Source of the DNA: Candidatus Levyibacteriota bacterium
GTDB lineage: Bacteria; Patescibacteriota; Microgenomatia; Levybacterales; UBA12049
Direction of reading: 5' to 3'
DNA length: 64,000 nucleotides
Assembly: GCA_043823085.1 (NCBI GenBank)
Contig: JBDRBE010000004.1
Coordinates: forward strand, 133,510-197,509
Positions within the stretch are counted from its first letter, which is position 1; every line of letters begins with the position of its first letter. The position numbers were made by a program, and so were the translations under genes. The notes beneath the pieces were generated by a model. That model was not told the origin of the DNA. It ran no database searches and worked only from the letters and a program-made list of their open reading frames with translations. Of this stretch, positions 2,038 through 54,030 are shown piece by piece.

Positions 2038-2042
2038 AAATT

Positions 2043-3035: not shown

Positions 3036-3039
3036 AATT

Positions 3040-4365: not shown

Positions 4366-4366
4366 T

Positions 4367-5620
4367 ATGCAAGCAGTAATTTTAGCAGCTGGTCTTTCCA
4401 GCAGATTTTATCCATTAGCAAGCGGAATGCACAAATCTATGATAAAGATTTGCGGCAAACCGATTCTCGAGTATACAATCAATGGTTTAAAAATGTCTGG
4501 AATAAAAGATATAGTTCTTGTGGTTAGTTCAACTGGATTAATTGAATCTTATTTTGGCAATGGAGAAAAATTTGGCGTTTCGATGAAATATGTTATTCAG
4601 CCGAAACCACTTGGAATGGGGAATGCGCTACTTTTAGCAGAAAAAAATCTCAAAGGTGATTTTCTTTTATTGAACGCTTCGCATGTTGATATTGGAATTT
4701 TTGCAAAAAAATTAATTGATGCTAAATCAGAAGAAAACAAGTCAATAATTTTAGTCAAAGAAGAAGAAAATACTTGGAAATTTGGAGTTGTTAAGTTGTC
4801 CGGTGATAGAGTGGAGGAATTGATAGAAAAACCAAAAAAAGGAGAAGAGCCTTCAAAATTACGCGTTATCGGGATATATTATTTTTCCAGAAAGTTTTTA
4901 AGCGAACTTAAAAATACACCTCAAGACCATTATCAACTAGAGGCAGCTATTTCTTCTTTTGCGAAAAAAAATTACGTTAAGGCAGTTATTATCAAGGAAG
5001 AAACTATCACCTTAAAATATTCATGGGATTTACTTAGTGTAAAGAATTTTATATTTAAATTGTTGAAAGGTGCGGTTGGAAAAAATGTTAATATCGCCAA
5101 AACTGCGGAAATTATTGGAGATGTTGTTATTGAAGACGGGGCAGAGATTTTGGAAGGCGCAAAAATAAAAGGGCCTTGTTACCTTGGAAAAAATACATAT
5201 GTTGGTAATCACGCGGTTTTGCGAAATAATGTTGACTTAGGAGAAAATAGTGTTGTCGGTGCATACATGGAAGTTAAAAATAGTATTATAATGTCGAATT
5301 CAAAAACGCACGCAGGGTTTATAGGAGATTCAATAATTGACCAAAATTGTAGAATCGGCACACAGTTTTGTACGGCTAATGTCAGACTTGACAGGAGTAC
5401 GGTTAAAGTTGATTTCAAAGGAAAAGTAATAGATACGGGATTAAAATCACTAGGTATGATTCTTGGAAAGAATGTTAGAATCGGCGTTAAATGTTCAACC
5501 ATGCCTGGAGTAACTATTGGTGAGAATGCAATTGTTGGACCATCAACAGTTGTTTCACAGAATGTGGAAGCAAATACAAAATACTATTCAAAATTTCAGG
5601 AAATTATTATAAAAAAATGA
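4367..5620 (+). CDS. Sugar-phosphate nucleotidyltransferase fused to a left-handed beta-helix acyltransferase domain (GlmU-like, archaeal-type)
   Basis: The N-terminal region (ILAAGLSSRF..GKPIL) is a nucleotidyltransferase fold. The C-terminal third carries hexapeptide (I/V-G-x-x-x-x) repeats. Confidence 0.7.
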   Translation: MQAVILAAGLSSRFYPLASGMHKSMIKICGKPILEYTINGLKMSGIKDIVLVVSSTGLIESYFGNGEKFGVSMKYVIQPKPLGMGNALLLAEKNLKGDFLLLNASHVDIGIFAKKLIDAKSEENKSIILVKEEENTWKFGVVKLSGDRVEELIEKPKKGEEPSKLRVIGIYYFSRKFLSELKNTPQDHYQLEAAISSFAKKNYVKAVIIKEETITLKYSWDLLSVKNFIFKLLKGAVGKNVNIAKTAEIIGDVVIEDGAEILEGAKIKGPCYLGKNTYVGNHAVLRNNVDLGENSVVGAYMEVKNSIIMSNSKTHAGFIGDSIIDQNCRIGTQFCTANVRLDRSTVKVDFKGKVIDTGLKSLGMILGKNVRIGVKCSTMPGVTIGENAIVGPSTVVSQNVEANTKYYSKFQEIIIKK

Positions 5621-6264
5621 AAAAAATAATTCTTTTTGATATTGATTACACTCTTTTTGATACTCAATTATTTAGAGAAAAGCTTTATAAAAGTATCGCC
5701 AATGCATTAGGTTGTGATATTAAAGATTCATCAGAAAATATTGACGAGATGTACGATGAAATTAGAGCAGAAAAAGGTTATTTTCAGCCAAAAATTTTTA
5801 GTTTGCAGCTTGCAAGGAAACTTGGCAGAGAAAAAGACGCGCAACTCATAGAAAAAGCAATATTTGCAAAAGAAAATTTTAAAAATTGTCTTTATAAAGA
5901 ATCACTTAAGGCTATCGAAAAGCTTTCAAAAATTATATCTGTTGGAATTTTTTCAAAAGGATATAATAGTTTTCAGAGAAACAAGATTAAAGTTCTCAAG
6001 AATGTTTTAAATAATAAAAACGTTCACATTTTTGTTAACAAACGCAAGAGCTTGCCAAAAATTATTGATAGATATAAAGATTTTAAACTTTATATTATTG
6101 ACGATGCTCTGGATGTATTATTTGAAGCCTGGAAATTACGTAAAGACATTGTAACAATTTGGGTAAAAAGAGGAATATATGCCAAAAACCAAAAACCAAT
6201 AGAAAATTTTAAGCCGGATGCTATAATAAAAAACCTTGGAGAATTAATTTCAGTTATTAAATAA
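5617..6264 (+). CDS. HAD-superfamily hydrolase
   Basis: N-terminal FDIDYTLFDT (DxDxT) motif. 215 aa. Confidence 0.65.
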   Translation: MKKIILFDIDYTLFDTQLFREKLYKSIANALGCDIKDSSENIDEMYDEIRAEKGYFQPKIFSLQLARKLGREKDAQLIEKAIFAKENFKNCLYKESLKAIEKLSKIISVGIFSKGYNSFQRNKIKVLKNVLNNKNVHIFVNKRKSLPKIIDRYKDFKLYIIDDALDVLFEAWKLRKDIVTIWVKRGIYAKNQKPIENFKPDAIIKNLGELISVIK

Positions 6265-6267
6265 ATT

Positions 6268-8034
6268 ATGTGCGGAATATTTGGATACGTAGGAAAAAAA
6301 GATAACGCGGCCGATACGATTCTTGAAGGATTAAAACTTTTAGAATATCGTGGTTATGATTCTTGGGGAGTTACTGTTAAGGTAGGAAAAAAACTTGAAG
6401 TAGATAAACATGTCGGAAAGATAGGAGATGCAAAAGTAACTCTTCCAAAAAGTTCTCTAGGCATTGGTCATACAAGGTGGGCAACACACGGAGGTGTGAC
6501 AGTAGTTAATGCCCATCCTCATCTGGATTGTTCAAAAACAATCGCAGTTGTTCATAACGGTATTGTAGAGAATTATGAGGAATTAAAGGAGGAATTGAAA
6601 ACGCAGGGACATCAGTTTGTTTCCCAGACTGATACAGAGGTAATGGCTCATCTTATTGAAGAAAATTTAAAACAAGGTAAAGGTTTTGCTACTTCGGTTA
6701 GGGATACTTTTAATAGACTTACCGGTTTAAATGCAATCGCTGTCGTAAATTCCATATCTAAAGAAGTAATTGCCGCTAAAACCGGATCACCTTTAGTTGT
6801 TGGGCAAAATAGTAATGGACTTTTTGTTGCCTCGGATGCTTGTGGAATCATTAAACATACTAGAAGCGTGATTTTTTTGGAAGATAATCAAATGGCCATT
6901 CTGGGAGATAAACTTAAATTAATACGTTTACCCAATGGAGAAGAAATTAAACCAATATTTCATCATCTTGACTGGAAGTTTGAGGAGGTTAAAAAGGGCA
7001 GCTATAAGCATTTCTTAATCAAGGAGATTCATGATCAACCGCAGGTCATTGAAAATATAGCCTTATCTTATGAAGAACAAACAAAAAAACTTGCAGACTT
7101 AATCGAAAAAGCTTTTGGAACCTTTATGTTAGGGTGCGGAACTGCTTCTTATGCGGCTTTGGCAGGTACGTATCTTTTTTCAAGAATTGCAAAAAAACAT
7201 ATTAATTTTTCAACAGGATCGGAATTTAATTACCTAGAAGATTATTTGACAAAGGAAAGTCTTCTTGTTCCTATTTCTCAAAGCGGAGAAACAATAGATG
7301 TAGTAGGGCCGGTTGCAACCGCTAAAAAAAGAGGCGTAAAAGTTGCGGCAATAGTTAATGTTTTAGGATCTACGCTGTATAGACAGGCAGATTATAAAGT
7401 TATGCTTTCGGCAGGGCCTGAAAAGGCAGTTGTCTGTACAAAGGGTTTTACTGCTATGATAGCTGTGCTTATTTTGACAGCTTATACTTTAGCTAAAAAT
7501 CAGGAAAAGGGTAAGAAATTACTTTTAAACGCAGTTAAAAACATTAGAGAAATTTTGCAAAATTCATATCAGCTAAATATAAAGAAACTTGCGCAAGAAT
7601 TAAAAAATAAAGAACATATTTATGTTATTGGGAGAGGATTATCTTATGCAACTGCTCTTGAAACAACACTTAAACTTAAAGAAGGCGCTTATATCCATGC
7701 AGAAGGTTTTGCCGGGGGAGAGCTCAAGCATGGTGTGATAGCGTTAATTGAAAAAGGAACGCCTTGTATTGTTTTTACACCAAACGATGAAACTTATAAC
7801 GATATTATTTCAAACGCGACGGAAATAAAAGCCAGAGGAGGATTTATTATTGGTATTGGACCAAAAAATAATGATGCATTTGATATATTTTTTAAAACAG
7901 CAGATGTTGGTGATGCAACAATTATTCCTCAAATTGTTATTGCGCAACTGCTTGCTTATAATCTAGCCCTTAAAAAAGGAATAAAAGATCCGGACAAACC
8001 AAGAAATCTGGCAAAAAGCGTCACGGTAAAATAA
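6268..8034 (+). CDS. glmS: Glutamine--fructose-6-phosphate aminotransferase
   Basis: MCGIFGYVG N-terminal nucleophile (Ntn) amidotransferase start followed by two SIS domains. 588 aa. Confidence 0.9.
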   Translation: MCGIFGYVGKKDNAADTILEGLKLLEYRGYDSWGVTVKVGKKLEVDKHVGKIGDAKVTLPKSSLGIGHTRWATHGGVTVVNAHPHLDCSKTIAVVHNGIVENYEELKEELKTQGHQFVSQTDTEVMAHLIEENLKQGKGFATSVRDTFNRLTGLNAIAVVNSISKEVIAAKTGSPLVVGQNSNGLFVASDACGIIKHTRSVIFLEDNQMAILGDKLKLIRLPNGEEIKPIFHHLDWKFEEVKKGSYKHFLIKEIHDQPQVIENIALSYEEQTKKLADLIEKAFGTFMLGCGTASYAALAGTYLFSRIAKKHINFSTGSEFNYLEDYLTKESLLVPISQSGETIDVVGPVATAKKRGVKVAAIVNVLGSTLYRQADYKVMLSAGPEKAVVCTKGFTAMIAVLILTAYTLAKNQEKGKKLLLNAVKNIREILQNSYQLNIKKLAQELKNKEHIYVIGRGLSYATALETTLKLKEGAYIHAEGFAGGELKHGVIALIEKGTPCIVFTPNDETYNDIISNATEIKARGGFIIGIGPKNNDAFDIFFKTADVGDATIIPQIVIAQLLAYNLALKKGIKDPDKPRNLAKSVTVK

Positions 8035-8046
8035 GAGTTAGGAATT

Positions 8047-8754
8047 ATGAATTATGAATCAAACATTATTATTTTACATGGATGGGGTTTAAACGGAAAT
8101 AAATATTCGAAACTGTCTTCTCTTTTAAAACAAAAAGGATGCAAAGTTTTTACACCGGATTTACCGGGTTTTGGAGCAGAACCTCTAAAATCAGAATCAA
8201 TGACGCTTGGCGATTACATTGATTTTGTTGAAAAATTTATCGAAAAGAATAAAATCCTAAAACCAATTATTATCGGTCATTCTTTCGGAGGAAGAGTTGC
8301 CATAAAATATTGTTGGAAATATCCAAAAAGCGTTTCGGCTTTAATATTAACAGGAGTGCCGGTAATTAGAAATGTTTCTCTTTCAAAAAAAATTGCTTTT
8401 TTATTATCAATTATGGGAAGAAAAATTTTTAGTATTTTTCCATCTTCAATAGAAAACATGATGAGAAAAATTCTTTATTTTTTACTAGGCGAGTGGGATT
8501 ATTATAAAGCAGGAAGATTAAAGCAAGTTTTTAAAAACATTGTCGGAGAAGACTTAAAGGGATATTTACGTGAAATAAGAATTCCAATATTGCTTATTTG
8601 GGGAGAGGAAGACAAAACAGTGCCGGCAGTAGATATAAAAAAGATTAAACAAATTAATAGTACTGTAAAAGAAGTAATTATCAAAGAGACCGGGCATAAA
8701 CTTCCCTATGATCATCCGGCGTTATTTTTAGATGCAATAATTTCCAATTTATGA
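8047..8754 (+). CDS. Alpha/beta-fold hydrolase
   Basis: GHSFGG nucleophile elbow with a C-terminal His. 235 aa. Confidence 0.65.
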   Translation: MNYESNIIILHGWGLNGNKYSKLSSLLKQKGCKVFTPDLPGFGAEPLKSESMTLGDYIDFVEKFIEKNKILKPIIIGHSFGGRVAIKYCWKYPKSVSALILTGVPVIRNVSLSKKIAFLLSIMGRKIFSIFPSSIENMMRKILYFLLGEWDYYKAGRLKQVFKNIVGEDLKGYLREIRIPILLIWGEEDKTVPAVDIKKIKQINSTVKEVIIKETGHKLPYDHPALFLDAIISNL

Positions 8755-10343
8755 ATGTTATTTTTTACTTAACAGGTTTTTTCTTCTTTTTTTGGGAAAT
8801 AAGAAATATTCTTTTTCTGGTAAATCTTTGGCAGATAAAAGAATACCGTTTTGACAGGCTATTTTCTCACTTAAAAGAAACTTCGCAAGGCAAAGACATA
8901 TTATTCTCTGCGCTTCCGATTGTAAAGTTAATCGCAATTTTAGGTTTTGGTTTTGTTATTTTTAATAATTTTTTGCTCCTGCCTTACCAGCTTTTTATCT
9001 TCTTTATTTTTTGTTTGCAATTCTTAAAGATAATTAAAGAAATTTGGGAGCATACTTTAAAAATACCGGTTTTAACCTTTAAAGCATTATTTATAACAAC
9101 CAGTACGCTTTTTATTGTTTCCCTTTTATTTTTTCTTCCGCTTATAGATAAATTTGCATGGATTTTAATTATTGACAAATTAGTCTTTTTGATAATTGCA
9201 TTTGCGGTTTTTTTTCTATCATTTCCTACGAATTTTTACAGAGGCTTTCAAGAAGAGAGAGCTATAAAAAAGATTAGAAAACATAAAAATCTTTTAGTAA
9301 TTGGAGTTACCGGAAGCTACGGTAAAAGTTCTACAAAAGAATATATTGCGCAGATTTTGGAGAAAAAATTTAAAGTTCTTAAAACCAAGGGAACAAATAA
9401 TACATTAATTGGAGTAACGAATACAATTATTTCCGGTTTAAAAGACGACACGGAAATTTTTGTTGTAGAAATGGGTGCTTATAAAAAAGGTGAAATTAAT
9501 GAAATTTGCGAAATTGTTAAGCCTAAAATTGGCATAATTACCGGAATTAATTCTCAACACCTTTCTCTTTTTGGAAGTTTGCAAAACACTATGGATGCAA
9601 AATATGAATTAATTAATTCACTGCCTTCCGGAGGGCTGGCAATATTTAACGGCAGCAATATAAATTCTTCTAAACTTTATTCCAAAACCAAAAAAAAGAA
9701 AATTATTTATAGTTCTTTTGACAATAAAGCCGATATTTATAGTTCTGATATCCAGATTGAAAAATCTTGCGTTGCTTTTGATGTTCATGCAGAGGGTATT
9801 GATATGGCGCTTAAAGCAAATCTTATAGGAAAGCAAAATGTTGAAAATATATTGCCTGCTGCTTATATTGCAAGATATTTGGGGATGAATATTACCGAGA
9901 TTAAAAAGGCAGTTTCAAAACTTAAACCATTGCCAAAAACAATGACAAAAATAAAATTTTCAAATGGCGCGACTTTAATTGATGATGCTTTTAATGCAAA
10001 TCCGGATGCTGTTTTAGCAGTGCTTGACTACATGAAAATTTATAACGGGAAGAAGATTTTAGTAATGCAGCCAATGATTGAGCTTGGAAAGGATGCAAAA
10101 AAAGAACATTATCGGGTAGCGCTTGAAATTTCAAAGATTTGTGACTACTTAGTTTTAACAAACAAAAATTTTTATTCTTCAGTCTCTATGGGGATAAAAG
10201 ACGGAAAAGGAAAATGTGCTGTTAAAATTTTTAGTCCTGGAGAAATTGTAGATTTTGTTAAGTCTAATTTAACTCCAGCAAGCATTGCTGTTTTTGAAGG
10301 AAAGGAAACACTAAAAGCATTATCCAAACTCCAGTCATTATGA
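8751..10343 (+). CDS. murF: UDP-MurNAc-tripeptide--D-Ala-D-Ala ligase MurF with an N-terminal polytopic membrane domain
   Basis: VIGVTGSYGKSSTKE P-loop and DAFNANPDA (the DxYNANP MurF signature) are present. The first ~170 aa are strongly hydrophobic (about 5 predicted TM helices) in place of the usual soluble N-terminal domain. Confidence 0.75.
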   Translation: MNVIFYLTGFFFFFWEIRNILFLVNLWQIKEYRFDRLFSHLKETSQGKDILFSALPIVKLIAILGFGFVIFNNFLLLPYQLFIFFIFCLQFLKIIKEIWEHTLKIPVLTFKALFITTSTLFIVSLLFFLPLIDKFAWILIIDKLVFLIIAFAVFFLSFPTNFYRGFQEERAIKKIRKHKNLLVIGVTGSYGKSSTKEYIAQILEKKFKVLKTKGTNNTLIGVTNTIISGLKDDTEIFVVEMGAYKKGEINEICEIVKPKIGIITGINSQHLSLFGSLQNTMDAKYELINSLPSGGLAIFNGSNINSSKLYSKTKKKKIIYSSFDNKADIYSSDIQIEKSCVAFDVHAEGIDMALKANLIGKQNVENILPAAYIARYLGMNITEIKKAVSKLKPLPKTMTKIKFSNGATLIDDAFNANPDAVLAVLDYMKIYNGKKILVMQPMIELGKDAKKEHYRVALEISKICDYLVLTNKNFYSSVSMGIKDGKGKCAVKIFSPGEIVDFVKSNLTPASIAVFEGKETLKALSKLQSL

Positions 10344-11584
10344 AGAGGCCTATTGCAATTTCTCTTTCACCGAACACAAAAACTAACGATGTTTTTTTGG
10401 CATTTAGACTGATATTTTCTCCATGGACATATATTAATGGTAATTATCCAAAGGTGTTGGAGCAATGGTTTAGAAATTATTTTAAAGTTTCAAATGCTAT
10501 TTCTTTTGCAAGCGGTAGGGGAGCATTACTTGCAATACTAAAAACTTTGGGAATTGGCTTACAAGACGAAGTAATTATTCAAGCGTTTACTTGTGTTGCA
10601 GTTTGTGATCCGATAATTAAAACAGGTGCAAAACCGATTTTTGCAGATATTAATAATTCATTAACAATGGACGCAGAAGACTTGGAAAAAAAAATTACAG
10701 CTAAAACAAAAGCGATTATTGTCCAGCATACTTTTGGTATACCGTCGGACTTAAATAAGATTTTGGCGATTGCAAAAAATCATGGAATAGCAGTAATTGA
10801 GGATTGCGCTCATATAATTGGCGGAAAATATAAAGATAAAAGACTTGGGACTTTTGGCGATGCTTCTTTTTTTAGTTTTGGAAGAGATAAAGCTTTTTCA
10901 TCTGTTTTTGGAGGAATGGCGATAACCGATAACGAACTTTTAGGAAAGAAGATAAGAATTTTTTGCAAACAGCAAAAAAATCCATCTTATTTTTGGGTGG
11001 CTCAACAGCTTTTTCATCCAATTGCTTTTTATTTTATTTTACCAATCTATAATTTTTTTGCATTCGGTAAGTTTCTGCTAATCTTTTTCCAAAAATTAAA
11101 ATTACTGTCATTACCGGTTTCTTCTAAAGAGAAACAAGGAGGTTTGTCATTAAAATTTGCCAGAAAATTACCAAACGCCTTTGCTTGTCTTGCCATCTTT
11201 CAACTTAAAAAAATTAACGAATATAATCAAAAACGAGAAGCAGTCGCAGATTATTACTTGAAAAATATTAAAAATAAAGAATTTATTTTTCCCTACCAAA
11301 AATCTATTCCTTTTTTGCGTTTTCCTATTTTAGCGGATAAGAGAGATGAAATTATTAATTTCTTTAAAAGAAAAGGAATTTATCTTGGAAAATGGTATAG
11401 CGAAACTGTAGGTCCTAAAGGAGTTAGTTTTAAGAGTATTTATTACAGGCAGGGGTTATGTCCAAATGCGGAGCTCATCGCAAAAAAAATAATTAATTTG
11501 CCGACTTATCCTGTTATGGAACCGAATGAAGAAAAGAAAATAGTTAATCTTCTGGAAAACTATGTTAAAGATTCAAGAAATTAA
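10340..11584 (+). CDS. DegT/DnrJ/EryC1/StrS-family PLP-dependent aminotransferase
   Basis: SGRGALLAIL...VIEDCAHIIGG...FSFGRDKAF (Lys-containing PLP motif). A ~60-aa hydrophobic insertion sits mid-protein. Confidence 0.7.
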   Translation: MKRPIAISLSPNTKTNDVFLAFRLIFSPWTYINGNYPKVLEQWFRNYFKVSNAISFASGRGALLAILKTLGIGLQDEVIIQAFTCVAVCDPIIKTGAKPIFADINNSLTMDAEDLEKKITAKTKAIIVQHTFGIPSDLNKILAIAKNHGIAVIEDCAHIIGGKYKDKRLGTFGDASFFSFGRDKAFSSVFGGMAITDNELLGKKIRIFCKQQKNPSYFWVAQQLFHPIAFYFILPIYNFFAFGKFLLIFFQKLKLLSLPVSSKEKQGGLSLKFARKLPNAFACLAIFQLKKINEYNQKREAVADYYLKNIKNKEFIFPYQKSIPFLRFPILADKRDEIINFFKRKGIYLGKWYSETVGPKGVSFKSIYYRQGLCPNAELIAKKIINLPTYPVMEPNEEKKIVNLLENYVKDSRN

Positions 11585-12575
11585 AGATAAAAAAGTTTGG
11601 GAGGATTTTATTGACAGAGCGGATTTTTATCCTTTTTTTCAATCATGGGACTGGGGGGATGTGCAAAAAAATCTTGGTCGAAAGATTTTAAGAATAGGAG
11701 CATATGAGGAAACTTTATTAATTGGTGTTTGTTTAGTTATCGAAATTAACGCGAGAAGAGGTCGCTATTTGCATCTAAGACACGGACCGGTGTTTTTAGT
11801 ATTTGACGAAAGGAAACTTGACGCAATTTTAGATTTTATTAAAAAAGAAGCAAGTAGAAGAGGGTCTTCTTTTATCCGTATCAGTCCGCTTTTAAATAAA
11901 GACTCGGAATCAGAAAAAATTTTGCAAAAAAAGGGATTTATTAATTCACCCATTCATAATATGGATGCAGAGACTTGTCTTATTTTGGATCTCGAAAAAT
12001 CAGAAGAAGATTTGCTTAAGGAAATGAGAAAGACACATAGATATTTAATACGTAAAGCACAAAATATGGGTATAAAAATTATTCGAACACAAAAAGTTTC
12101 TGATTTGAATAGTTTTTTGGATATTTATAAGAATTTATCAAAAAGAAAGCATTTTGTTCCGCACAGCGACGTAAAAGAAGAATTTGAATTATTTGTCGAA
12201 GATGATCAGGCGGTTTTATTTTTAGCGTCATTTCGAAAAAAAATTATTTGTGGTGCGATAATAATTTTTGCCGGGAATATGGCAATTTATCATCATGGAG
12301 CGTCTTTGGATGAGTTTAGAGACGTTCCTATCTCATATTTACTGCAATGGGAAGCGATTTTAGAAGCCAAAAAACGAGGTAAAAAACTTTATAATTTTTG
12401 GGGAATAACGCCTTTAGATAAACCTAATCATCCCTGGAAAGGAATCACCCTTTTTAAAACAGGATTTGGCGGTACTAGGCTTGAATTTATGCACGCCAAG
12501 GACCTGCCTTTAAATATATGGTACTGGAAAAGTTTTTTAATAGAATTTTATACAAAATGGAAAAAAGGGTATTGA
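11562..12575 (+). CDS. FemAB-family peptidoglycan aminoacyl/peptidyl transferase
   Basis: 337 aa GNAT-like Fem fold, with QSWDWGDV and a C-terminal HHGASL..YLLQWEAI region. Confidence 0.6.
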   Translation: MLKIQEIKDKKVWEDFIDRADFYPFFQSWDWGDVQKNLGRKILRIGAYEETLLIGVCLVIEINARRGRYLHLRHGPVFLVFDERKLDAILDFIKKEASRRGSSFIRISPLLNKDSESEKILQKKGFINSPIHNMDAETCLILDLEKSEEDLLKEMRKTHRYLIRKAQNMGIKIIRTQKVSDLNSFLDIYKNLSKRKHFVPHSDVKEEFELFVEDDQAVLFLASFRKKIICGAIIIFAGNMAIYHHGASLDEFRDVPISYLLQWEAILEAKKRGKKLYNFWGITPLDKPNHPWKGITLFKTGFGGTRLEFMHAKDLPLNIWYWKSFLIEFYTKWKKGY

Positions 12576-12612: not shown

Positions 12613-13623
12613 ATGGCTCAACTCTTAGGACTAATCATCCTCTCTTTTTTTATAAGCGGTATTCTTCTTGTTCCTTTTATTGATTTTTTATATAAAATTA
12701 AATTAAGGCGTCAAAAACAAGTAACAAGGGATGTTTTTAATAACAAAACTCCGGTTTTTGATAAATTCAATACCTGTAAAGTTGGAACTCCATTTGGCGG
12801 AGGAATCCTTATTATTCTTGTTTCAACGGCATTAACTTTGTGGGCATATGGGATTTTTAATATTAATATAAAACCATGGGAACTTTTCGTGATTCTTTTT
12901 TCTTTCTTAGGTTTTGGAGCATTAGGTCTTTATGACGATCTAAAAAAATTAGTTAATGGATCGAAAACAGCATTCTTTGGTCTGCGTTTTAGGCATAAGT
13001 TTATAATCCAATGGATTTTAGCGGTTATTATCGCGACGGTTCTATATTCAAAATTAGGTTATGATTTTATTTTCATTCATGGATTTGGCTTAGCAAGCAT
13101 TGGTTTTTTATTCATACCTGTGGCCGCATTTATTATTGTTTCTTTTGTTAACGCATTTAACATTTCTGATGGTCTTGACGGACTTTCTTCGGGACTTTTT
13201 CTTATTTGCATGATTGCATTTTTAGTTATTACTTCAAGTCAGTTAGATAAATCGCTTGGAATTTTTATTGCAATACTTATTGGAAGTGTTGCAGCATTTT
13301 TATATTTTAATATTTATAAAGCCAGGATTTGGCTTGGTGATGTGGGTTCATTATCCCTTGGTGCTGTTCTTGCCGTTGTTGGACTTTTAACAGGTAAAAT
13401 TGTCGCATTGGGATTTATTGGCGGATTTTTTATGCTGGAAGCAGGATCGTCTTTGATACAAATATTTGGCAAAAAGTTTTTAGGCAGAAAAATTTTGCCA
13501 GTTTCACCGTTACATCTCTATTTAAGAAAAATTGGCTGGGAAGAGCCAAAAATTGTTATGAGAGCGTGGTTGGCTGGTTTAATTTTTGCTGTTCTGGGTT
13601 TATATATAGCTCTTATCCGATGA
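12613..13623 (+). CDS. mraY: Phospho-N-acetylmuramoyl-pentapeptide transferase
   Basis: NAFNISDGLDGL motif and polytopic membrane topology. 336 aa. Confidence 0.9.
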   Translation: MAQLLGLIILSFFISGILLVPFIDFLYKIKLRRQKQVTRDVFNNKTPVFDKFNTCKVGTPFGGGILIILVSTALTLWAYGIFNINIKPWELFVILFSFLGFGALGLYDDLKKLVNGSKTAFFGLRFRHKFIIQWILAVIIATVLYSKLGYDFIFIHGFGLASIGFLFIPVAAFIIVSFVNAFNISDGLDGLSSGLFLICMIAFLVITSSQLDKSLGIFIAILIGSVAAFLYFNIYKARIWLGDVGSLSLGAVLAVVGLLTGKIVALGFIGGFFMLEAGSSLIQIFGKKFLGRKILPVSPLHLYLRKIGWEEPKIVMRAWLAGLIFAVLGLYIALIR

Positions 13624-13624
13624 A

Positions 13625-14692
13625 ATGAAAAAAATAGATCTTCTCCTTTTGGCAACTGTAGTTTTTTTAACTCTTTTTGGACTTCTAATGATTTATGACG
13701 CCTCTTCATTTATTGCATTTAGAGATTTTGCAGATAAAAATCATTATGTCAAAGATCAGGCGCTTTGGGTAGTTTTAGGTTTTTGCATGCTTTTGTTCTT
13801 TTCCTTTTTTGATTACCGAAGACTTTATAATCTTTCAATACCTCTTTTAATAGTAGCGATTATTTTTTTATCTCTTGTTTTTGTTCCGGGTGTTGGTATT
13901 CAGGTTCTTGGAGCTAGACGTTGGATAGATGCAGGAGTTTTTGTTATTCAGCCTGCAGAATTTATTAAACTTTCTTTGGCTGTTTATCTTTCGGCCTGGT
14001 TCTCTCGTAAAGAGAAGGGGAGATCTTTTGCGTTCTTTCTCTTGCTTGGCTTGGTAATGGTTCTTGTGATGCTTGAGCCTGATCTTGGTACTGCTTCTAT
14101 TATCTTTCTGGAAGCGGTAATTATTTATTTTTTATCCGGAGCAAATATTCTTTATTTTATTGGAATGGCGCCAATTGTTGCCATAGGATTATTTTTGTTA
14201 ATTAAAGTAGAATCGTATAGGGCGCAGAGGCTTGCGGCTTTTTTGAATATCAATCAATCACTTCAAAACTCTTCGTACCACGTAAAGCAAATTCTAATTG
14301 CTCTCGGAATGGGAGGACTGACAGGTGTGGGACTAGGTAATTCTTTGCAAAAATATGCGTATCTTCCGGAGAATACGACTGATTCTATTTTTGCTATTAT
14401 TGCCGAAGAGATAGGTTTTATTGGCGCAACGATTTTAATAGTTCTTTTGGCTGTTGTAATTTGGCGCGGGTTTTATATTGCGCTTAATAGTAAAGATCCT
14501 TTCGGAAGACTTCTTGCCGGGGGTATTACGTCCTTTTTGGCGATACAAATGATTCTTAATCTTGGCTCCCAAACTGCTCTTTTTCCTTTAACAGGTATTC
14601 CTCTTCCATTTATTTCCTACGGCGGTTCATCCTTAGTGGTTGATTTATTATCAGTTGGAATACTTCTTAATATTTCAAAAAATAAAATATAA
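13625..14692 (+). CDS. ftsW: SEDS-family peptidoglycan glycosyltransferase FtsW
   Basis: MIYDASS N-terminal region, 10-TM SEDS topology, positioned between mraY and murG. Confidence 0.85.
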   Translation: MKKIDLLLLATVVFLTLFGLLMIYDASSFIAFRDFADKNHYVKDQALWVVLGFCMLLFFSFFDYRRLYNLSIPLLIVAIIFLSLVFVPGVGIQVLGARRWIDAGVFVIQPAEFIKLSLAVYLSAWFSRKEKGRSFAFFLLLGLVMVLVMLEPDLGTASIIFLEAVIIYFLSGANILYFIGMAPIVAIGLFLLIKVESYRAQRLAAFLNINQSLQNSSYHVKQILIALGMGGLTGVGLGNSLQKYAYLPENTTDSIFAIIAEEIGFIGATILIVLLAVVIWRGFYIALNSKDPFGRLLAGGITSFLAIQMILNLGSQTALFPLTGIPLPFISYGGSSLVVDLLSVGILLNISKNKI

Positions 14693-14695
14693 AAT

Positions 14696-15799
14696 ATGAA
14701 AGCAGTTTTTACCGGAGGTCATTTGTCCCCGCTGTTAGCGGTTTTGGACGTTATGCCAAAGGATATTGACCTTTTGGTTATTGGAAGAAAATATGCGCTT
14801 GAAGGCGATAAGGTTCTTTCTTTGGAATATCAAACGTTAAATAAAGAGAAAGTTCGTTTTGAAAATATCACAGCCGCAAGACTGCAAAGAAAATTTACAA
14901 GACATACTCTTGCTGCGCTTTTTAAATTTCCATTAGGCTTTGTTCAGTCACTGTTGATTTTGTTAAAATTTAAACCGGAGGTTGTGTTATCGTTTGGCGG
15001 ATATGTTTCTCTTCCGGTAACATTGGCAAGTTTCGTTTTAGGAATTCCCGTTGTAATACACGAACAAACTTTGGAAGCAGGACTATCCAATAGAATCAGT
15101 TCCTTTTTTGCCAAAAAGATATGCATATCTTGGGAAACATCAAGAAAATTTTTTCCCAAATCAAAAGTTGTAATGACGGGAAACCCCGTACGAGAATTTT
15201 CAATTTTCAATTTTAAATTTTCAATTTCGGATGAGAAAATTCCATTAGTTTATGTTACGGGTGGAAGTTCAGGGTCTCATGCAATAAATCTTTTGATTGA
15301 GGGTTGTCTTGAAAAATTATTAGTCAATTGTAAAATTATTCACCAAACCGGCGGGGCAAAAGAATATAACGATTTGGAGCGTCTGAAGAAAATTAAAGAT
15401 AGCCTGAATCAAAAATTTCAAAAGAGGTATTTTCTTGCGAAGTTTATTGAGCCATGCGATGTCGGCTCAATTGTTAATGCAAGCGATCTTGTTGTATCAA
15501 GATCCGGCATAAGTACTATTACTGAACTTTTATTTTTTGCAAAACCTTCTCTTTTGATACCGCTTCCTTTTTCACAAAATAACGAGCAGAAAAAAAATGC
15601 TCTTCTTTTGCAAAATCTGGGTTTAGGAGAAATTATTGATCAAGAAAAAACTTCTTGCGATTTGTTATATGATAAAATGATAGAAATGTTGAATAACATC
15701 GAAAAATATAAAAAATCAAGAGAAGTTGTAAAAACATTAATAAAAAAAGATGCGGCGCAAAAATTAATTGAGGTATGTTATGCGCAAAAGAAAAATTAA
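14696..15799 (+). CDS. murG: Undecaprenyldiphospho-muramoylpentapeptide beta-N-acetylglucosaminyltransferase
   Basis: FTGGHLSPLLAV N-terminal G-rich motif and a GT28 fold. It contains the (TTTTCAA)4 insertion that encodes [10 protein letters not shown]. Confidence 0.85.
   Translation: MKAVFTGGHLSPLLAVLDVMPKDIDLLVIGRKYALEGDKVLSLEYQTLNKEKVRFENITAARLQRKFTRHTLAALFKFPLGFVQSLLILLKFKPEVVLSFGGYVSLPVTLASFVLGIPVVIHEQTLEAGLSNRISSFFAKKICISWETSRKFFPKSKVVMTGNPVREFSIFNFKFSISDEKIPLVYVTGGSSGSHAINLLIEGCLEKLLVNCKIIHQTGGAKEYNDLERLKKIKDSLNQKFQKRYFLAKFIEPCDVGSIVNASDLVVSRSGISTITELLFFAKPSLLIPLPFSQNNEQKKNALLLQNLGLGEIIDQEKTSCDLLYDKMIEMLNNIEKYKKSREVVKTLIKKDAAQKLIEVCYAQKKN
15197..15224. repeat. Heptanucleotide tandem array ttttcaa-ttttcaa-ttttaaa-ttttcaa (28 nt) inside murG
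   Basis: Read directly from the sequence. It translates to [10 protein letters not shown] within MurG. Confidence 0.9.
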
Positions 15800-16187
15800 A
15801 AGAAAAATATTTTTTATATGGTTTATTTTGTTATTAATTCTTTTTTGTTTGGCAATAACAATATTAATTTTGTATAAAAATTTGAATTTAATATCAGTTC
15901 CTTCAGCAGTAAATAAACTCGAAGATTCTAAAGATGTGCAATTAACAAAAAATCTGGAGCAAATTTTAGCCAAAAATAATATTAAATTTGATTTAATAAA
16001 GCTTGCTTCGCAATCTTCAGTTTTAGTTATTTTATTAAGCGGCGAAGAGATAATTTTCTCCAAAGTTAAGCCTTTGGAAGCTCAAGTTTCCTCTTTGCAA
16101 TTTATACTTTCTAGGCTTACAATAGAAGGTAAACGGTTTTCGCGATTAGATTTTAGATTTGAAAAACCGGTAATTTCTTTAAAGTAA
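15768..16187 (+). CDS. Small membrane-anchored protein, possibly an FtsQ/DivIB-like division protein
   Basis: Basic N-terminus followed by one TM helix. It sits in the ftsQ position between murG and ftsA, but is only 139 aa. Confidence 0.4.
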   Translation: MRYVMRKRKIKRKIFFIWFILLLILFCLAITILILYKNLNLISVPSAVNKLEDSKDVQLTKNLEQILAKNNIKFDLIKLASQSSVLVILLSGEEIIFSKVKPLEAQVSSLQFILSRLTIEGKRFSRLDFRFEKPVISLK

Positions 16188-16190
16188 GTT

Positions 16191-17501
16191 ATGAGCGAGG
16201 GAAAAATTGTTGTCGGAATAGATATAGGAACCTCAAAAATTGTCACTGTAATTGCCAAGGTTGACGATTCTGTAAACGTACTTGGAGTTTCGGAAGTAAA
16301 AGCGCAAGGCATTAAAAAGGGTCAAATCGTTGATATTGAGGAAGCTGTTTTATCAATCAACAGTTCTCTTGAATCTGCCGAAAGAATGGCAGGATATTCT
16401 GTTTCTCATGTTATTACTTCAATTGGCGGAGATCATGTTGAAAGCCAAAATTCAAAAGGAGTAGTTGCAGTTTCCAATCCTGACGGCGAGATTATTAAGA
16501 ATGATTTAACTAGGGTTATTGATGCAGCTAAGGCAATTTCTCTTCCTTCAAGCCGCGAGATTATTCATGTTTTGCCGCGAACCTACGCGGTTGATGGACA
16601 GCAAGGAATTAAAGACCCAATTGGAATGACAGGAGTTAGACTTGAGGTCGATACCCATTTGGTTACTGCTTCTTCAACATCAATTCGCAATATCGAAAAG
16701 GCAATGTCAGAAGTTGGAGTTGATATTGATGGTATTGTTTTCAATGGTTATGCAAGTAGTCTTTCTGCACTTTCGGAAACGGAAAAAGAGCTTGGCGTGG
16801 TTTTGGTTGATATGGGCGCTGGGACAACAGATATTTGTATTTATACAGAGGGATCCTTGTCATATTCATCTGTTCTATCAATAGGGGCCAGGCACATAAC
16901 CAATGATTTGGCAATTGGACTTAGAATTTCTTTGGAATCGGCAGAAAAAATAAAACTTTACCTTTCAAAAACTCCGGAAAAAACAAAACTTGAACCAAAC
17001 GATTTTGAAAAAGAAGAAGTGAAACCTTTACAAAGAAACTTCATGGGAAAGAATGACGAGCTTGATTTAAGTGCGTTAAACCTTCCCGAAGATTTAGGCT
17101 CGGTTTCTAAAAAAACTTTAATTGATGGAATTATCAGACCGAGACTTAACGAAATATTTACCATGGTTGGACTTGAAATTAAAAAAAGCGGATTTGCCGC
17201 ATCTACACCGGCAGGTCTGGTTGTAACAGGAGGGGGAGCAAGAACAATAGGCATTAATGATGCGACAAAAAGAATGCTTGCCATGCCAATTAGAATTGGC
17301 TATCCGCAGGAATTAAAAGGAATAATCGATGAAGTGCAAGACTCTCCATTTTCAACAGTTATTGGTTTGGCCATATATGGTTCAAAAGTTGAAACGTCTA
17401 CCGGTTTACCTTTTGGTTTTTCTTTTCCCCAAGCTCCTTTTTTAAAATTTGGAAAGTTTTCCAATAAAATTATTGATTTGATAAAATCATTTATTCCATA
17501 A
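16191..17501 (+). CDS. ftsA: Cell division protein FtsA
   Basis: VVGIDIGTSKI actin-fold phosphate-1 motif. 436 aa, immediately upstream of ftsZ. Confidence 0.9.
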   Translation: MSEGKIVVGIDIGTSKIVTVIAKVDDSVNVLGVSEVKAQGIKKGQIVDIEEAVLSINSSLESAERMAGYSVSHVITSIGGDHVESQNSKGVVAVSNPDGEIIKNDLTRVIDAAKAISLPSSREIIHVLPRTYAVDGQQGIKDPIGMTGVRLEVDTHLVTASSTSIRNIEKAMSEVGVDIDGIVFNGYASSLSALSETEKELGVVLVDMGAGTTDICIYTEGSLSYSSVLSIGARHITNDLAIGLRISLESAEKIKLYLSKTPEKTKLEPNDFEKEEVKPLQRNFMGKNDELDLSALNLPEDLGSVSKKTLIDGIIRPRLNEIFTMVGLEIKKSGFAASTPAGLVVTGGGARTIGINDATKRMLAMPIRIGYPQELKGIIDEVQDSPFSTVIGLAIYGSKVETSTGLPFGFSFPQAPFLKFGKFSNKIIDLIKSFIP

Positions 17502-17559
17502 ACTTCACTCTTGCAAAATCATTTTTTATCTGTTAGGATTTAGCTAATTAATTTGCCTT

Positions 17560-27681: not shown

Positions 27682-27716
27682 GCTTCAAATGATATACTTC
27701 AAATATAAAAACAAAC

Positions 27717-30731: not shown

Positions 30732-30732
30732 T

Positions 30733-32240: not shown

Positions 32241-32261
32241 TATTATATAATTAAAATTAAA

Positions 32262-53978: not shown

Positions 53979-54007
53979 GAGTTCGGGGTATAACCAACCG
54001 ATAGTTA

Positions 54008-54028
54008 GCGTATGGCGTATGGCGTATG
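54008..54028. repeat. (gcgtatg)3 heptamer array in the gatD-murT spacer
   Basis: Read directly from the sequence. Confidence 0.85.
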
Positions 54029-54030
54029 GT

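What the first reader, a model, noticed from the sequence alone, without database searches (positions are those of the whole stretch)
8751..12575. dcw cluster carries Gram-positive-style tailoring genes (DegT aminotransferase, FemAB transferase) between murF and mraY
The canonical order is murE-murF-mraY. Here murF is followed by a DegT/DnrJ-family PLP aminotransferase (10340-11584) and a FemAB-family transferase (11562-12575) before mraY. Together with MurT/GatD at 53223-55458 this predicts a lipid II with an amidated iso-glutamine and a branched interpeptide or amino-sugar modification. That is unusual to find hard-wired into the division-and-cell-wall operon of a small, CPR-like genome.
Basis: inference. 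Interest (0 to 1): 0.6.

Follow-up and report, generated by a model that had tools for sequence, protein, structure and literature searches.

The report
Conserved CPR hydrolase–MurF–DegT–FemX cell-wall module
Between glmS and mraY this Levybacteria genome carries four overlapping genes (a hydrolase, a membrane-anchored MurF, an unusual PLP aminotransferase and a FemX-type transferase) that stay together, and are sometimes fused, across the ultra-small CPR bacteria and some Chloroflexota, which points to an undescribed step in building their cell-wall precursor.

Summary
ORFs at 8751-10343, 10340-11584 and 11562-12575 are MurF-like, DegT-family and FemAB-family, directly upstream of mraY. MurT/GatD is also present.

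The arrangement is not a local oddity. At least 239 species-level genomes carry the same unit (Microgenomates, Parcubacteria-type lineages, Gracilibacteria, and two 70%-GC Chloroflexota). The unit is alpha/beta-hydrolase, then MurF, then DegT, then FemAB, with overlapping stop/start codons. Every adjacent pair also occurs as a fused protein somewhere.

- The MurF lacks the UDP-binding N-domain and has instead a conserved 5-helix membrane domain of no known family.
- The DegT protein belongs to a distinct subfamily with intact PLP residues and a hydrophobic helical-hairpin insertion of about 36-50 residues, present in all 150 representatives and in none of the 50 best-matching solved structures.
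- A serine hydrolase belongs to the unit.

No sugar dehydratase or oxidoreductase partner accompanies DegT in 85 loci. The module proteins diverge in step with MraY, FtsW and MurG.

Best reading: a membrane-associated complex that finishes and tailors the peptidoglycan precursor. The FemX role (tRNA-dependent branching) is plausible. The DegT reaction is unknown. No description was found in the searchable literature.

The parts
8047..8754 (+). alpha/beta-fold serine hydrolase, the first gene of the conserved module
   Evidence: Abhydrolase_1 99 bits and Hydrolase_4/S33 74 bits. The triad is at least 90% conserved in 69 orthologs: Ser79 in GHSFGG, Asp188 in WGxxD, and His217. It lies within 2.3 kb upstream of DegT in 67/76 loci. 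It overlaps murF by 4 nt. An ABhyd-MurF fusion exists, P0490.
8751..9284 (+). N-terminal membrane domain of the MurF-like ligase (5 long helices plus an invariant cytoplasmic loop LWQxKEYRxDR). It replaces the UDP-MurNAc-binding N-domain.
   Evidence: No PF01225 match. The AF2 model has pLDDT 92 with helices 3-29, 54-71, 73-99, 110-128 and 134-176. W27, Q28, E31, Y32, R33, D35 and R36 are invariant in the 58 sequences of alignment A3; W27, K30, Y32 and R36 are still invariant across the distant lineages of A4. No Pfam, NCBIfam or PDB match.
9285..10343 (+). MurF-type ATP-dependent ligase body (central and C-terminal domains)
   Evidence: TIGR01143 murF 243 bits, covering profile positions 68-395. 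The P-loop GxTGSxGK, EMGAYxxGEI, DDxxNANP and IELG...H motifs are conserved in 69 orthologs. Foldseek: the top 10 hits are all MurF, with rmsd 2.4 A to A. baumannii MurF. NCBI names it MurF.
10340..11584 (+). DegT-family PLP-dependent aminotransferase of a distinct subfamily
   Evidence: PF01041 229 bits. K184 and D155 are 100% conserved, R60 97%, G181 99% and D183 93% across 150 representatives at 36-52% identity. AF2 pLDDT is 92. All NCBIfam equivalogs score far below their cut-offs, with PseC, LegC and ArnB at about 155 bits. It is fused to FemAB in 5 cluster representatives and to MurF in 3.
10982..11134 (+). Family-specific hydrophobic helical-hairpin insertion in DegT (residues ~215-265)
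   Evidence: Helices 217-236, 242-252 and 262-265, pLDDT 86-93. Present in all 150 representatives. Mean hydropathy is +0.64 against -0.07 for the whole protein. Absent from the 50 best Foldseek matches, which are ~360-370 aa (KabA and Fic25 are larger) with TMq ~0.75. It sits where the phmmer alignment to QdtB splits into two pieces.
11562..12575 (+). FemX-type (FemAB family) aminoacyl-transferase, 337 aa, without a coiled-coil insertion
   Evidence: PF02388 132 bits. Best PDB matches: S. aureus FemX 6snr, FemA 1lrz, and Weissella FemX over residues 11-283. The tlFKxGFGG motif (F298, K299) and the QSWxWG, RHGP and YNFWG motifs are conserved in 71 orthologs. It is directly downstream of DegT in 57/76 loci and within 3 kb in 18 more.
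12613..13623 (+). MraY, the next pathway step, 37 nt downstream of FemAB
   Evidence: TIGR00445 169 bits. It lies downstream of the module in 39/72 loci.
616..8034 (+). Upstream precursor-supply genes of the same plus-strand cluster: murC, murB, murA, archaeal-type glmU, a HAD hydrolase and glmS
   Evidence: TIGR01082 murC 406 bits and TIGR03992 Arch_glmU 312 bits. MurB_C, EPSP_synthase and the HAD hit are. glmS is assigned by the GATase/SIS domain hits on the identical gene in L085. The same order occurs in most Microgenomates loci.
13625..18654 (+). Downstream division genes: ftsW, murG, a small FtsQ-like ORF (unconfirmed), ftsA and ftsZ
   Evidence: TIGR02614 ftsW 347 bits and TIGR01133 murG 210 bits. 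ftsA and ftsZ are recognised from their translations and from the FtsA Pfam hits on the orthologous genes in L003/L004; window ftsA and ftsZ were not scanned against a family library. The synteny is shown.
53223..55458 (-). GatD (53223-53978) and MurT (54031-55458), the putative lipid II isoglutamine synthase pair
   Evidence: GATase_3 107.8 bits and MurT_C 90.7 bits. NF052463 GatD 222 bits and NF045635 MurT 225 bits, both full-length but below the equivalog cut-offs.

Best explanation
The four genes encode one membrane-associated enzyme assembly that finishes and tailors the peptidoglycan precursor just before MraY.

(1) The MurF-like protein is the cell's D-Ala-D-Ala-adding ligase. Its soluble UDP-binding cap has been replaced by a five-helix membrane domain with a conserved basic/acidic cytoplasmic loop, so stem-peptide completion happens at the membrane. 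This step is inferred.

(2) The FemX-type protein uses an aminoacyl-tRNA to add a branch residue to the side-chain amine of stem-peptide position 3. This resembles Weissella FemX acting on UDP-MurNAc-pentapeptide, or S. aureus FemX acting on lipid II. This step is inferred from family membership and motifs.

(3) The DegT-type enzyme is a catalytically competent PLP transaminase that is physically coupled to both neighbours. Its hydrophobic hairpin probably docks it on the membrane or on the MurF membrane domain. It carries out an extra transamination on, or for, the same precursor. The most likely role is to create or process the amine that FemX acylates, but the substrate is unknown.

(4) The serine hydrolase edits or supplies a substrate. 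This too is inferred.

What is shown: family identities, intact catalytic residues, overlapping reading frames compatible with translational coupling, phylum-scale synteny, co-divergence with core cell-wall genes, and old gene fusions. What is inferred: every substrate and the order of the reactions.
For: - Family and motif evidence.
- Overlapping stop/start codons in the window. Across loci the median gaps are -4, -1 and -14 nt.
- Synteny in 84 loci sampled from at least 239 species genomes: MurF directly upstream of DegT in 72/80, and FemAB adjacent in 57/76 and nearby in 18 more.
- Fusions. Five DegT-FemAB fusions are only 35-42% identical to each other, so the fused state is old. There are three MurF-DegT fusions, one of which was seen on 5 contigs, and one ABhyd-MurF fusion.
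- The module proteins diverge in step with MraY, FtsW and MurG (Spearman 0.56-0.89) and to a similar degree (median identity 45%, against 39-52% for those three), as expected for vertically inherited housekeeping genes.
- In Microgenomates the MurF-like gene lies directly upstream of mraY apart from the inserted genes. No other MurF-like gene lies within 10 kb in any locus.
- No sugar dehydratase or oxidoreductase is linked to DegT in the window or in 85 loci.
- A MurF without its N-terminal cap has a precedent in the B. pertussis MurE-MurF chimera (PMC10214165).
Against: - No biochemical data exist for any member.
- Known peptidoglycan precursors contain no carbonyl for a transaminase to act on, so the DegT step has no precedent and its substrate is a guess.
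- The MurF-like protein scores below the NCBIfam murF cut-off and lacks the domain that binds UDP in canonical MurF.
- I could not inspect whole genomes, so a second canonical MurF, for example next to murE, is not excluded.
- In Parcubacteria-type and Chloroflexota genomes the module stands apart from the dcw cluster.
- Four loci have ABhyd-DegT-FemAB without MurF between them.
Confidence: 0.55

Rival explanations
1. Separate pathway. The membrane MurF-like ligase is a paralog, not the housekeeping MurF. The four enzymes build a different envelope molecule, for example a lipid-linked or polymer-linked amino sugar carrying a short peptide. In this scheme DegT makes the amino sugar, FemAB and the ligase add amino acids, and the hydrolase trims.
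For: - The ligase lacks the UDP-MurNAc-binding N-domain and falls below the murF cut-off.
- The module is self-contained and unlinked to the dcw cluster in Parcubacteria-type and Chloroflexota genomes. In the Chloroflexota locus it follows an NTP-transferase gene.
- DegT's nearest characterised relatives are all sugar or cyclitol aminotransferases.
Against: - All MurF signature motifs are kept, including those of the C-terminal domain.
- The ten best structural matches are all MurF.
- The gene lies directly upstream of mraY, apart from the inserted genes, in Microgenomates.
- No other MurF was seen in any locus.
- These genomes are tiny and rarely keep paralogs.
- No keto-sugar-forming enzyme is ever linked to the module.
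Confidence: 0.2
2. Substrate supply. DegT and FemAB provide the dipeptide or D-amino acid that MurF needs. For example, DegT could be a stereo-inverting transaminase making D-Ala from pyruvate, and FemAB could make a peptide bond from an aminoacyl-tRNA. This would replace Alr and Ddl.
For: - The fusions place DegT next to MurF and FemAB next to DegT.
- No Ddl-like gene occurs in the window or in ~1.5 Mb of related loci (using a query written from memory).
- DegT has family-specific Arg and Asp residues at the active site: R60, and GRDK in place of [HY]xxK.
- DegT-fold enzymes can act on amino-acid-like substrates; Fic25 is among the fold hits.
- From general knowledge: fold-type-I stereo-inverting transaminases exist (D-phenylglycine aminotransferase), and Fem-like enzymes make peptide bonds in dehydrophos and pacidamycin biosynthesis.
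Against: - ddl and alr may simply lie elsewhere in these genomes.
- D-Glu supply is conventional (MurI, or MurL with MurD) in related loci, so these organisms do keep ordinary D-amino-acid enzymes.
- Aminoacyl-tRNAs carry L-amino acids, whereas DD-transpeptidases need D-Ala-D-Ala.
- No DegT-family D-amino-acid transaminase is known.
Confidence: 0.1
3. Ordinary O-antigen or capsule-type sugar genes (an NDP-sugar aminotransferase plus an N-acyltransferase) that merely hitch-hike in the dcw cluster.
For: DegT's best solved relatives are QdtB, ArnB, perosamine synthase and WbpE. A polysaccharide cluster lies at 26.6-34.2 kb in the window.
Against: - The arrangement is conserved across at least 239 species and two phyla, with fusions to MurF.
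- The proteins diverge in step with core cell-wall genes.
- The insertion-bearing subfamily is distinct from all solved sugar aminotransferases.
- No dehydratase partner is present, and the window's polysaccharide cluster has no sugar-modifying enzymes.
Confidence: 0.05

Closest known systems
FemX of Weissella viridescens (UDP-MurNAc-pentapeptide:L-Ala transferase) and FemX/FemA/FemB and MurM of staphylococci and streptococci
   Same: - Same Pfam family (PF02388).
- FemX_Wv-like size (337 aa) and no coiled-coil insertion.
- The aligned FK motif is conserved.
- Encoded with peptidoglycan genes in an organism that also has MurT/GatD, as in S. aureus.
   Different: - Only distant similarity: 27-49 bits to the solved Fem proteins, and 41 bits to the NCBIfam FemX model against a cut-off of 500.
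- Reading frames overlap with, and the protein is sometimes fused to, a DegT aminotransferase, which no characterised Fem protein shows.
- The donor tRNA and the acceptor are unknown.
MurF (UDP-MurNAc-tripeptide:D-Ala-D-Ala ligase), including the cap-less MurF of the B. pertussis MurE-MurF chimera
   Same: - The central and C-terminal domains, the catalytic motifs and the best structural matches are all MurF.
- The gene lies directly upstream of mraY, apart from the inserted genes, in Microgenomates.
- A MurF lacking its N-terminal cap and stabilised by a partner is documented (PMC10214165).
   Different: - The N-terminal domain is replaced by a conserved 5-helix membrane domain of unknown family with an invariant WQxKEYRxDR loop.
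- The protein is fused to DegT or to the hydrolase in some lineages.
- No membrane-integral MurF and no MurF-DegT chimera appears in the published chimera survey.
Sugar-nucleotide and cyclitol aminotransferases of the DegT/DnrJ/EryC1/StrS family (QdtB, ArnB, PseC, perosamine synthase, WbpE)
   Same: Fold (TMq ~0.75), the PLP-binding Lys, and the Asp of the EDxAH motif.
   Different: - A hydrophobic helical hairpin of ~36-50 residues is inserted between the two domains.
- Active-site changes: SGT to SGR, FSF[HY]xxK to FSFGRDK, and GEGG to VFGG.
- No linked dehydratase or oxidoreductase.
- Obligate linkage to MurF and FemX.
- No equivalog-level match.
MurT/GatD lipid II amidation complex
   Same: - It is an example of a Mur-ligase-family enzyme without the UDP-binding N-domain that works with a partner enzyme on a late (lipid-linked) precursor.
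- It is present in the same genome.
   Different: - Different chemistry (amidation of D-Glu).
- MurT is not membrane-integral.
- It involves neither PLP nor tRNA.
Aminoacyl-phosphatidylglycerol synthase (MprF-type, Fem-like dual-GNAT fold) paired with an alpha/beta-hydrolase that removes the aminoacyl group (from general knowledge)
   Same: A tRNA-dependent aminoacyl transferase is encoded together with an alpha/beta-fold serine hydrolase, which suggests an add-and-remove (editing or homeostasis) logic.
   Different: The substrate there is a lipid head group, not a peptidoglycan precursor. Here the hydrolase is coupled to MurF, not to the transferase. This is an analogy only and was not tested.

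Membership tests
MurF (TIGR01143 / Mur ligase family) | Mur ligase central ATP-binding domain with P-loop, plus the C-terminal domain | tested here: met
   PF08245 136.5 bits and PF02875 39.6 bits. The motifs are conserved in 69 orthologs.
MurF (TIGR01143 / Mur ligase family) | N-terminal UDP-MurNAc-peptide-binding domain (PF01225-type cap) | tested here: not met
   No PF01225 match. Residues 1-178 form five membrane helices. The murF profile is matched only from position 68.
MurF (TIGR01143 / Mur ligase family) | Score above the curated family cut-off | tested here: not met
   243.2 bits against a cut-off of 288.6. The shortfall is consistent with the missing N-domain.
MurF (TIGR01143 / Mur ligase family) | Closer to MurF than to MurC, MurD, MurE or MurT | tested here: met
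   NCBIfam: murF 243 bits against murD 86, murC 82 and murE 73. Foldseek: the top 10 hits are all MurF, at E 1e-23 to 1e-28, against 1e-19 for MurC and MurE.
MurF (TIGR01143 / Mur ligase family) | Ligates D-Ala-D-Ala to UDP-MurNAc-tripeptide, and is the only such enzyme in the genome | not testable with these tools
   This needs an enzyme assay and a whole-genome inventory. Only +/-10 kb around each gene could be read.
DegT/DnrJ/EryC1/StrS aminotransferases | Pfam PF01041 above the gathering score, and a fold-type-I sugar-aminotransferase fold | tested here: met
   229 bits against a cut-off of 19.8. TMq ~0.75 to ArnB, QdtB, Per and WbpE.
DegT/DnrJ/EryC1/StrS aminotransferases | Catalytic PLP-binding lysine, and the aspartate that binds the pyridine nitrogen | tested here: met
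   K184 and D155 are 100% conserved in 151 sequences. K184 aligns with the PLP lysine region of QdtB.
DegT/DnrJ/EryC1/StrS aminotransferases | Assignable to a characterised subfamily (PseC, LegC, ArnB, WecE, DesI and others) | tested here: not met
   The best equivalog scores are ~155 bits against cut-offs of 420-631. The insertion is absent from the 50 best-matching solved structures.
DegT/DnrJ/EryC1/StrS aminotransferases | Genomic linkage to the enzyme that makes its keto substrate (a 4,6-dehydratase or a 3-/4-oxidoreductase) | tested here: not met
   None is present in the window, among the genes inserted between DegT and FemAB, or in the Chloroflexota locus.
FemAB family (tRNA-dependent peptidoglycan aminoacyl transferases) | Pfam PF02388 above the gathering score, over both GNAT-like halves | tested here: met
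   132 bits against a cut-off of 24, in three stretches. The alignment to Weissella FemX spans residues 11-283.
FemAB family (tRNA-dependent peptidoglycan aminoacyl transferases) | Conserved Phe-Lys catalytic motif near the C-terminus (F304/K305 in FemX_Wv, numbering recalled from the literature) | tested here: inconclusive
   F298 and K299 in tlFKxGFGG are at least 90% conserved and align with 'fK' of S. aureus FemX. Equivalence to FemX_Wv K305 rests on memory of the literature and not on a structure superposition.
FemAB family (tRNA-dependent peptidoglycan aminoacyl transferases) | Equivalog-level identity with a characterised Fem enzyme | tested here: not met
   The NF047883 FemX model scores 41 bits against a cut-off of 500.
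FemAB family (tRNA-dependent peptidoglycan aminoacyl transferases) | Uses an aminoacyl-tRNA donor and a peptidoglycan-precursor acceptor | not testable with these tools
   This needs an in vitro assay.
MurT/GatD lipid II isoglutamine synthase | Adjacent genes for a Mur-ligase-like protein with a MurT_C domain and a GATase_3 glutaminase | tested here: met
   PF08353 90.7 bits and PF07685 107.8 bits. The genes are 52 nt apart on the minus strand.
MurT/GatD lipid II isoglutamine synthase | Score above the NCBIfam equivalog cut-offs | tested here: not met
   MurT scores 225 against 800 and GatD 222 against 450, although both alignments are full-length.

The most novel reading that the evidence does not exclude
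In CPR bacteria (and some Chloroflexota) the last 'cytoplasmic' steps of peptidoglycan precursor synthesis have moved into a membrane-embedded MurF-DegT-FemX assembly. This assembly works on lipid-linked (undecaprenyl-pyrophosphate) intermediates. The novel MurF membrane domain, with its conserved charged loop, recognises the lipid carrier in place of UDP. The hairpin-bearing DegT enzyme performs a PLP-dependent transamination that has never been seen in peptidoglycan synthesis. The result would be a new peptidoglycan chemotype across a large part of bacterial diversity.
Probability: 0.2. Interest if true: 0.85.

Novelty: new variant of a known kind. Interest (0 to 1): 0.68.

Why it matters
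CPR/Patescibacteria make up a large share of bacterial diversity, and their cell-wall chemistry has never been determined. Surveys only state that the pathway is 'essentially complete'.

This module shows that their pathway differs from the textbook one in three conserved ways: a membrane-integral MurF, a FemX-type brancher, and a PLP aminotransferase with no known role in peptidoglycan synthesis. All three are tied together tightly enough to be fused in several lineages.

It also gives concrete handles:
- A defined four-protein set to express and assay.
- A specific mass-spectrometry prediction: branched and amidated stems, possibly with one extra modification.
- A lineage marker shared by CPR and some Chloroflexota, which is relevant to their proposed relationship.
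- A reason to treat automatic annotations such as 'perosamine synthetase' or 'pentaglycine transferase' on these genes with caution.

Tried and rejected
- Literature. Seven full-text searches and five papers read found no description of the module, of a membrane MurF, or of a MurF-DegT fusion.
- Partner enzyme. I looked for a keto-sugar-forming partner of DegT in the window, in the genes inserted between DegT and FemAB (which turned out to be an MBL-fold hydrolase, a CvpA/YkwD-like membrane protein and a small membrane protein) and in a Chloroflexota locus. None was found.
- Second MurF. The extra Mur-ligase hits between mraY and ftsW are MurD, with MurI or a MurL-like epimerase beside them. 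Extending the window upstream failed because the only other contig copy starts at murC. Whole genomes could not be read, so the question stays open.
- Ddl. A probe with E. coli DdlB written from memory found nothing in the window or in 85 loci. This is suggestive only.
- MurF membrane domain. There was no match in Pfam, NCBIfam or PDB profiles. The only hits, an olfactory receptor and TspO, are at chance level.
- 740-aa Chloroflexota MurF. I first took this for an extra domain, then rejected it as an over-extended ORF in 70%-GC DNA, because the alignment starts at residue ~212.
- Gene counting. My first ORF-based adjacency count under-called divergent FemAB genes. I replaced it with tblastn-based counts.
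- Promoter and terminator scans are at chance level and say nothing either way.

Full report
**Observation.**

Their family assignments hold.
- 8751-10343 carries the Mur ligase central and C-terminal domains. Its best NCBIfam match is murF (243 bits).
- 10340-11584 is a DegT/DnrJ/EryC1/StrS protein (229 bits).
- 11562-12575 is a FemAB-family protein (132 bits).
- MraY, FtsW, MurG, FtsA and FtsZ follow.
- MurT and GatD are present at 54031-55458 and 53223-53978 on the minus strand.

One correction is needed. murE is not upstream. The cluster starts with murC, murB, murA, an archaeal-type glmU, a HAD gene, glmS and an alpha/beta hydrolase. The window comes from a Candidatus Levyibacteriota (Microgenomates, CPR) genome.

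1. The MurF-like protein has no N-terminal UDP-MurNAc-binding domain. Residues 1-178 form five long helices that continue as one helix into the ligase body (AF2 pLDDT 92). They carry a cytoplasmic loop, LWQxKEYRxDR, that is invariant in close relatives. W27, K30, Y32 and R36 remain invariant in the most distant ones. This domain matches nothing in Pfam, NCBIfam or PDB. The ligase body keeps every MurF signature motif, and its ten best structural matches are all MurF.
2. The DegT protein carries a hydrophobic insertion of ~36-50 residues (~215-265). The insertion is predicted with confidence as a helical hairpin. It lies where the alignment to QdtB breaks into two pieces.
3. The alpha/beta hydrolase at 8047-8754 belongs to the unit.
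4. The four reading frames overlap: ATGA, ATGA, and 23 nt.

**Conservation.**

A pattern scan of one genome per GTDB species found 239 genomes that encode this DegT subfamily. I read the 80 best loci with 10-kb flanks, plus four further loci from other look-ups. Searching these 84 loci with the window's proteins gave these counts:
- the MurF-like gene directly upstream of DegT in 72 of 80 loci;
- FemAB directly downstream in 57 of 76, and 0.65-3 kb downstream in 18 more;
- the hydrolase upstream in 67 of 76;
- mraY downstream in 39 of 72.

The taxa include Levy-, Gottesman- and Roizmanbacteria and Parcubacteria-type lineages (Wildermuth-, Yanofsky-, Harrison-, Kerfeld- and Andersenbacteria). 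They also include Gracilibacteria and two Chloroflexota/Dehalococcoidia genomes. The latter two have 69-70% GC against a 40% median, so they are truly not CPR.

In Microgenomates the unit sits in front of mraY. Elsewhere it stands alone or lies divergent from mraY. In the Chloroflexota locus it is flanked by unrelated repair genes. The conserved entity is therefore the four-gene unit, not 'two genes inserted into dcw'. The membrane domain of MurF is conserved throughout.

**Functional coupling.**

An exhaustive search of 1.8 billion representatives found long proteins, which Pfam resolves as follows:
- five DegT-FemAB fusions;
- three MurF-DegT fusions;
- one transglutaminase-core-DegT fusion;
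- one hydrolase-MurF fusion, from the MurF homolog search.

The DegT-FemAB fusions are only 35-42% identical to each other over their full length, so the fused state is old and maintained. One MurF::DegT fusion was seen on five contigs. It keeps the order hydrolase, MurF::DegT, FemAB.

Identity to the window proteins co-varies among the four module proteins and with MraY, FtsW and MurG (Spearman 0.56-0.89). The module proteins are about as conserved as those core genes. This is the pattern of vertically inherited housekeeping genes, not of mobile surface-glycan genes.

**The DegT subfamily.**

Across 150 representatives at 36-52% identity:
- the PLP lysine K184 and D155 are invariant;
- R60, G181 and D183 are at least 93% conserved;
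- the insertion is present in every sequence and is consistently hydrophobic.

Compared with typical family members, active-site motifs have changed: SGT to SGR, FSF[HY]xxK to FSFGRDK, and GEGG to VFGG (compared with the family consensus from general knowledge).

Foldseek places the model equally close to ArnB, QdtB, perosamine synthase and WbpE (TMq ~0.75). None of the 50 best-matching solved structures has the insertion. The hit list also contains DegT-fold enzymes that act on non-nucleotide substrates: KabA (a sugar phosphate) and Fic25 (an N-acetyl diamino acid). All NCBIfam equivalogs are far below their cut-offs.

No 4,6-dehydratase or sugar oxidoreductase, the usual partner that makes the keto substrate, is linked to the gene in the window or in any locus examined.

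**FemAB and the hydrolase.**

The FemAB protein has the size of Weissella FemX and lacks a coiled coil. It aligns with that enzyme over residues 11-283 and with S. aureus FemX and FemA. It keeps a conserved FK-containing motif, tlFKxGFGG. The hydrolase keeps its Ser-Asp-His triad.

**Interpretation.**

The best-supported model is a membrane-associated assembly that completes and tailors the peptidoglycan precursor next to MraY.
- MurF is anchored in the membrane. A cap-less but functional MurF has a precedent in the B. pertussis MurE-MurF chimera (PMC10214165).
- FemX adds a tRNA-borne branch residue.
- DegT performs an additional transamination whose substrate is unknown.
- The hydrolase edits or supplies a substrate.

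With MurT/GatD, the predicted product is an amidated, branched stem, possibly with one further modification. All substrates are inferred.

The main rival is that the ligase is a paralog and the module makes a different envelope molecule (about 0.2). I could not exclude a second canonical murF because whole genomes could not be read.

A second rival is that DegT and FemAB supply MurF's dipeptide or D-amino acid (about 0.1). The absence of any Ddl-like gene in ~1.5 Mb of loci gives it only weak support. Conventional D-Glu supply in related loci, through MurI or a MurL-like epimerase next to MurD, weakens it.

The reading that these are hitch-hiking O-antigen genes is essentially refuted.

**Novelty.**

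Each gene is individually annotated in public records as MurF, as a DegT family aminotransferase (sometimes 'perosamine synthetase') or as a FemA/FemB family protein.

I found no paper that describes any of the following:
- the conserved four-gene unit;
- the membrane-integral MurF;
- the insertion-bearing DegT subfamily;
- the fusions.

The published survey of Mur chimeras excluded unidentified species and lists no MurF-DegT type. Non-open-access literature could not be searched.

I rate this a new variant of a known kind (peptidoglycan precursor tailoring). It has moderately high interest because it is phylum-wide and includes an enzyme type with no known role in peptidoglycan synthesis.

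Noticed in passing
L024:14686-17348 and L031:14237-16875 (compare L026:13742-15912): Between mraY and ftsW, some Gottesmanbacteria-type CPR genomes encode a MurL-like UDP-MurNAc-L-Ala-L-Glu epimerase (356 bits, full length, below the Xanthomonadales-tuned cut-off) followed by a MurD-like ligase. Others have glutamate racemase MurI followed by MurD. So both known routes to D-Glu appear within CPR.
   Followed up: partly
L064 and L069 (Chloroflexota/Dehalococcoidia MAGs, 69-70% GC): The complete hydrolase-MurF(TM)-DegT-FemAB unit occurs outside CPR in high-GC Chloroflexota, next to unrelated yebC-ruvCA-uvrB genes. This could reflect shared ancestry of CPR and Chloroflexota, or transfer.
   Followed up: partly
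P0361 / L086:466-2445: A transglutaminase-core (cysteine-protease-like) domain is fused to the N-terminus of a DegT protein of this subfamily. The contig is only 2.6 kb, so the context is unknown. The domain may stand in for the alpha/beta hydrolase.
   Followed up: partly
L087:2632-5420: In the genome with the MurF::DegT fusion, lysyl-tRNA synthetase and seryl-tRNA synthetase genes lie just upstream of the module (PBP, GreA, LysRS, SerRS, FtsQ-like, hydrolase, MurF::DegT, FemAB). This is a possible hint about the FemX donor, but it is a single case.
   Followed up: no
15 loci, e.g. L031:11212-11853; 7 loci, e.g. L034:11229-12245: In Gottesmanbacteria-type genomes, an MBL-fold (glyoxalase-II-like) hydrolase is inserted between DegT and FemAB. 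Often a CvpA/YkwD(SCP)-like membrane protein and a small membrane protein are inserted there too.
   Followed up: partly
window 4367-5620: The GlmU of this bacterium is the archaeal-type bifunctional sugar-1-phosphate nucleotidylyltransferase/acetyltransferase (TIGR03992, 312 bits, above its cut-off). It is not the bacterial GlmU, which scores 111 bits.
   Followed up: no
window 25542-26489 (-): A D-isomer-specific 2-hydroxyacid dehydrogenase with weak similarity to VanH-type D-lactate dehydrogenases (101 bits). It could in principle supply D-lactate for a depsipeptide stem terminus, but it is unlinked to the module.
   Followed up: no
window 18716-19192: A small PNPOx-like (pyridoxamine-5'-phosphate-oxidase fold) protein is encoded immediately after ftsZ, in the same plus-strand run as the PLP-dependent DegT gene. 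The match is weak (35.5 bits).
   Followed up: no
window 26599-34150: A surface-polysaccharide cluster with five glycosyltransferases, a Wzx-type flippase, a methyltransferase and a Wzy/O-antigen-ligase-like protein. It contains no sugar-nucleotide-modifying enzymes.
   Followed up: no
window ~34000: Gene orientation switches from nearly all plus strand (1-34 kb) to nearly all minus strand (34-58 kb). GC skew drops from about +0.1 to +0.24 to about zero or negative at the same point. This is the pattern expected at a replication terminus or another strand-bias boundary.
   Followed up: no
record titles of L010, L011, L013, L016 and many other loci: Many species-representative MAGs that carry this typical CPR gene cluster are titled 'uncultured Gammaproteobacteria bacterium' (also Woesearchaeota, Pacearchaeota or Pseudomonadales) in the public records. 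These labels look wrong.
   Followed up: no
window 57066-58832 (-), 47623-48396 (-): A PolX-type DNA polymerase (pol-beta thumb plus PHP domain) and a stand-alone GGDEF diguanylate cyclase, both in a very small genome.
   Followed up: no
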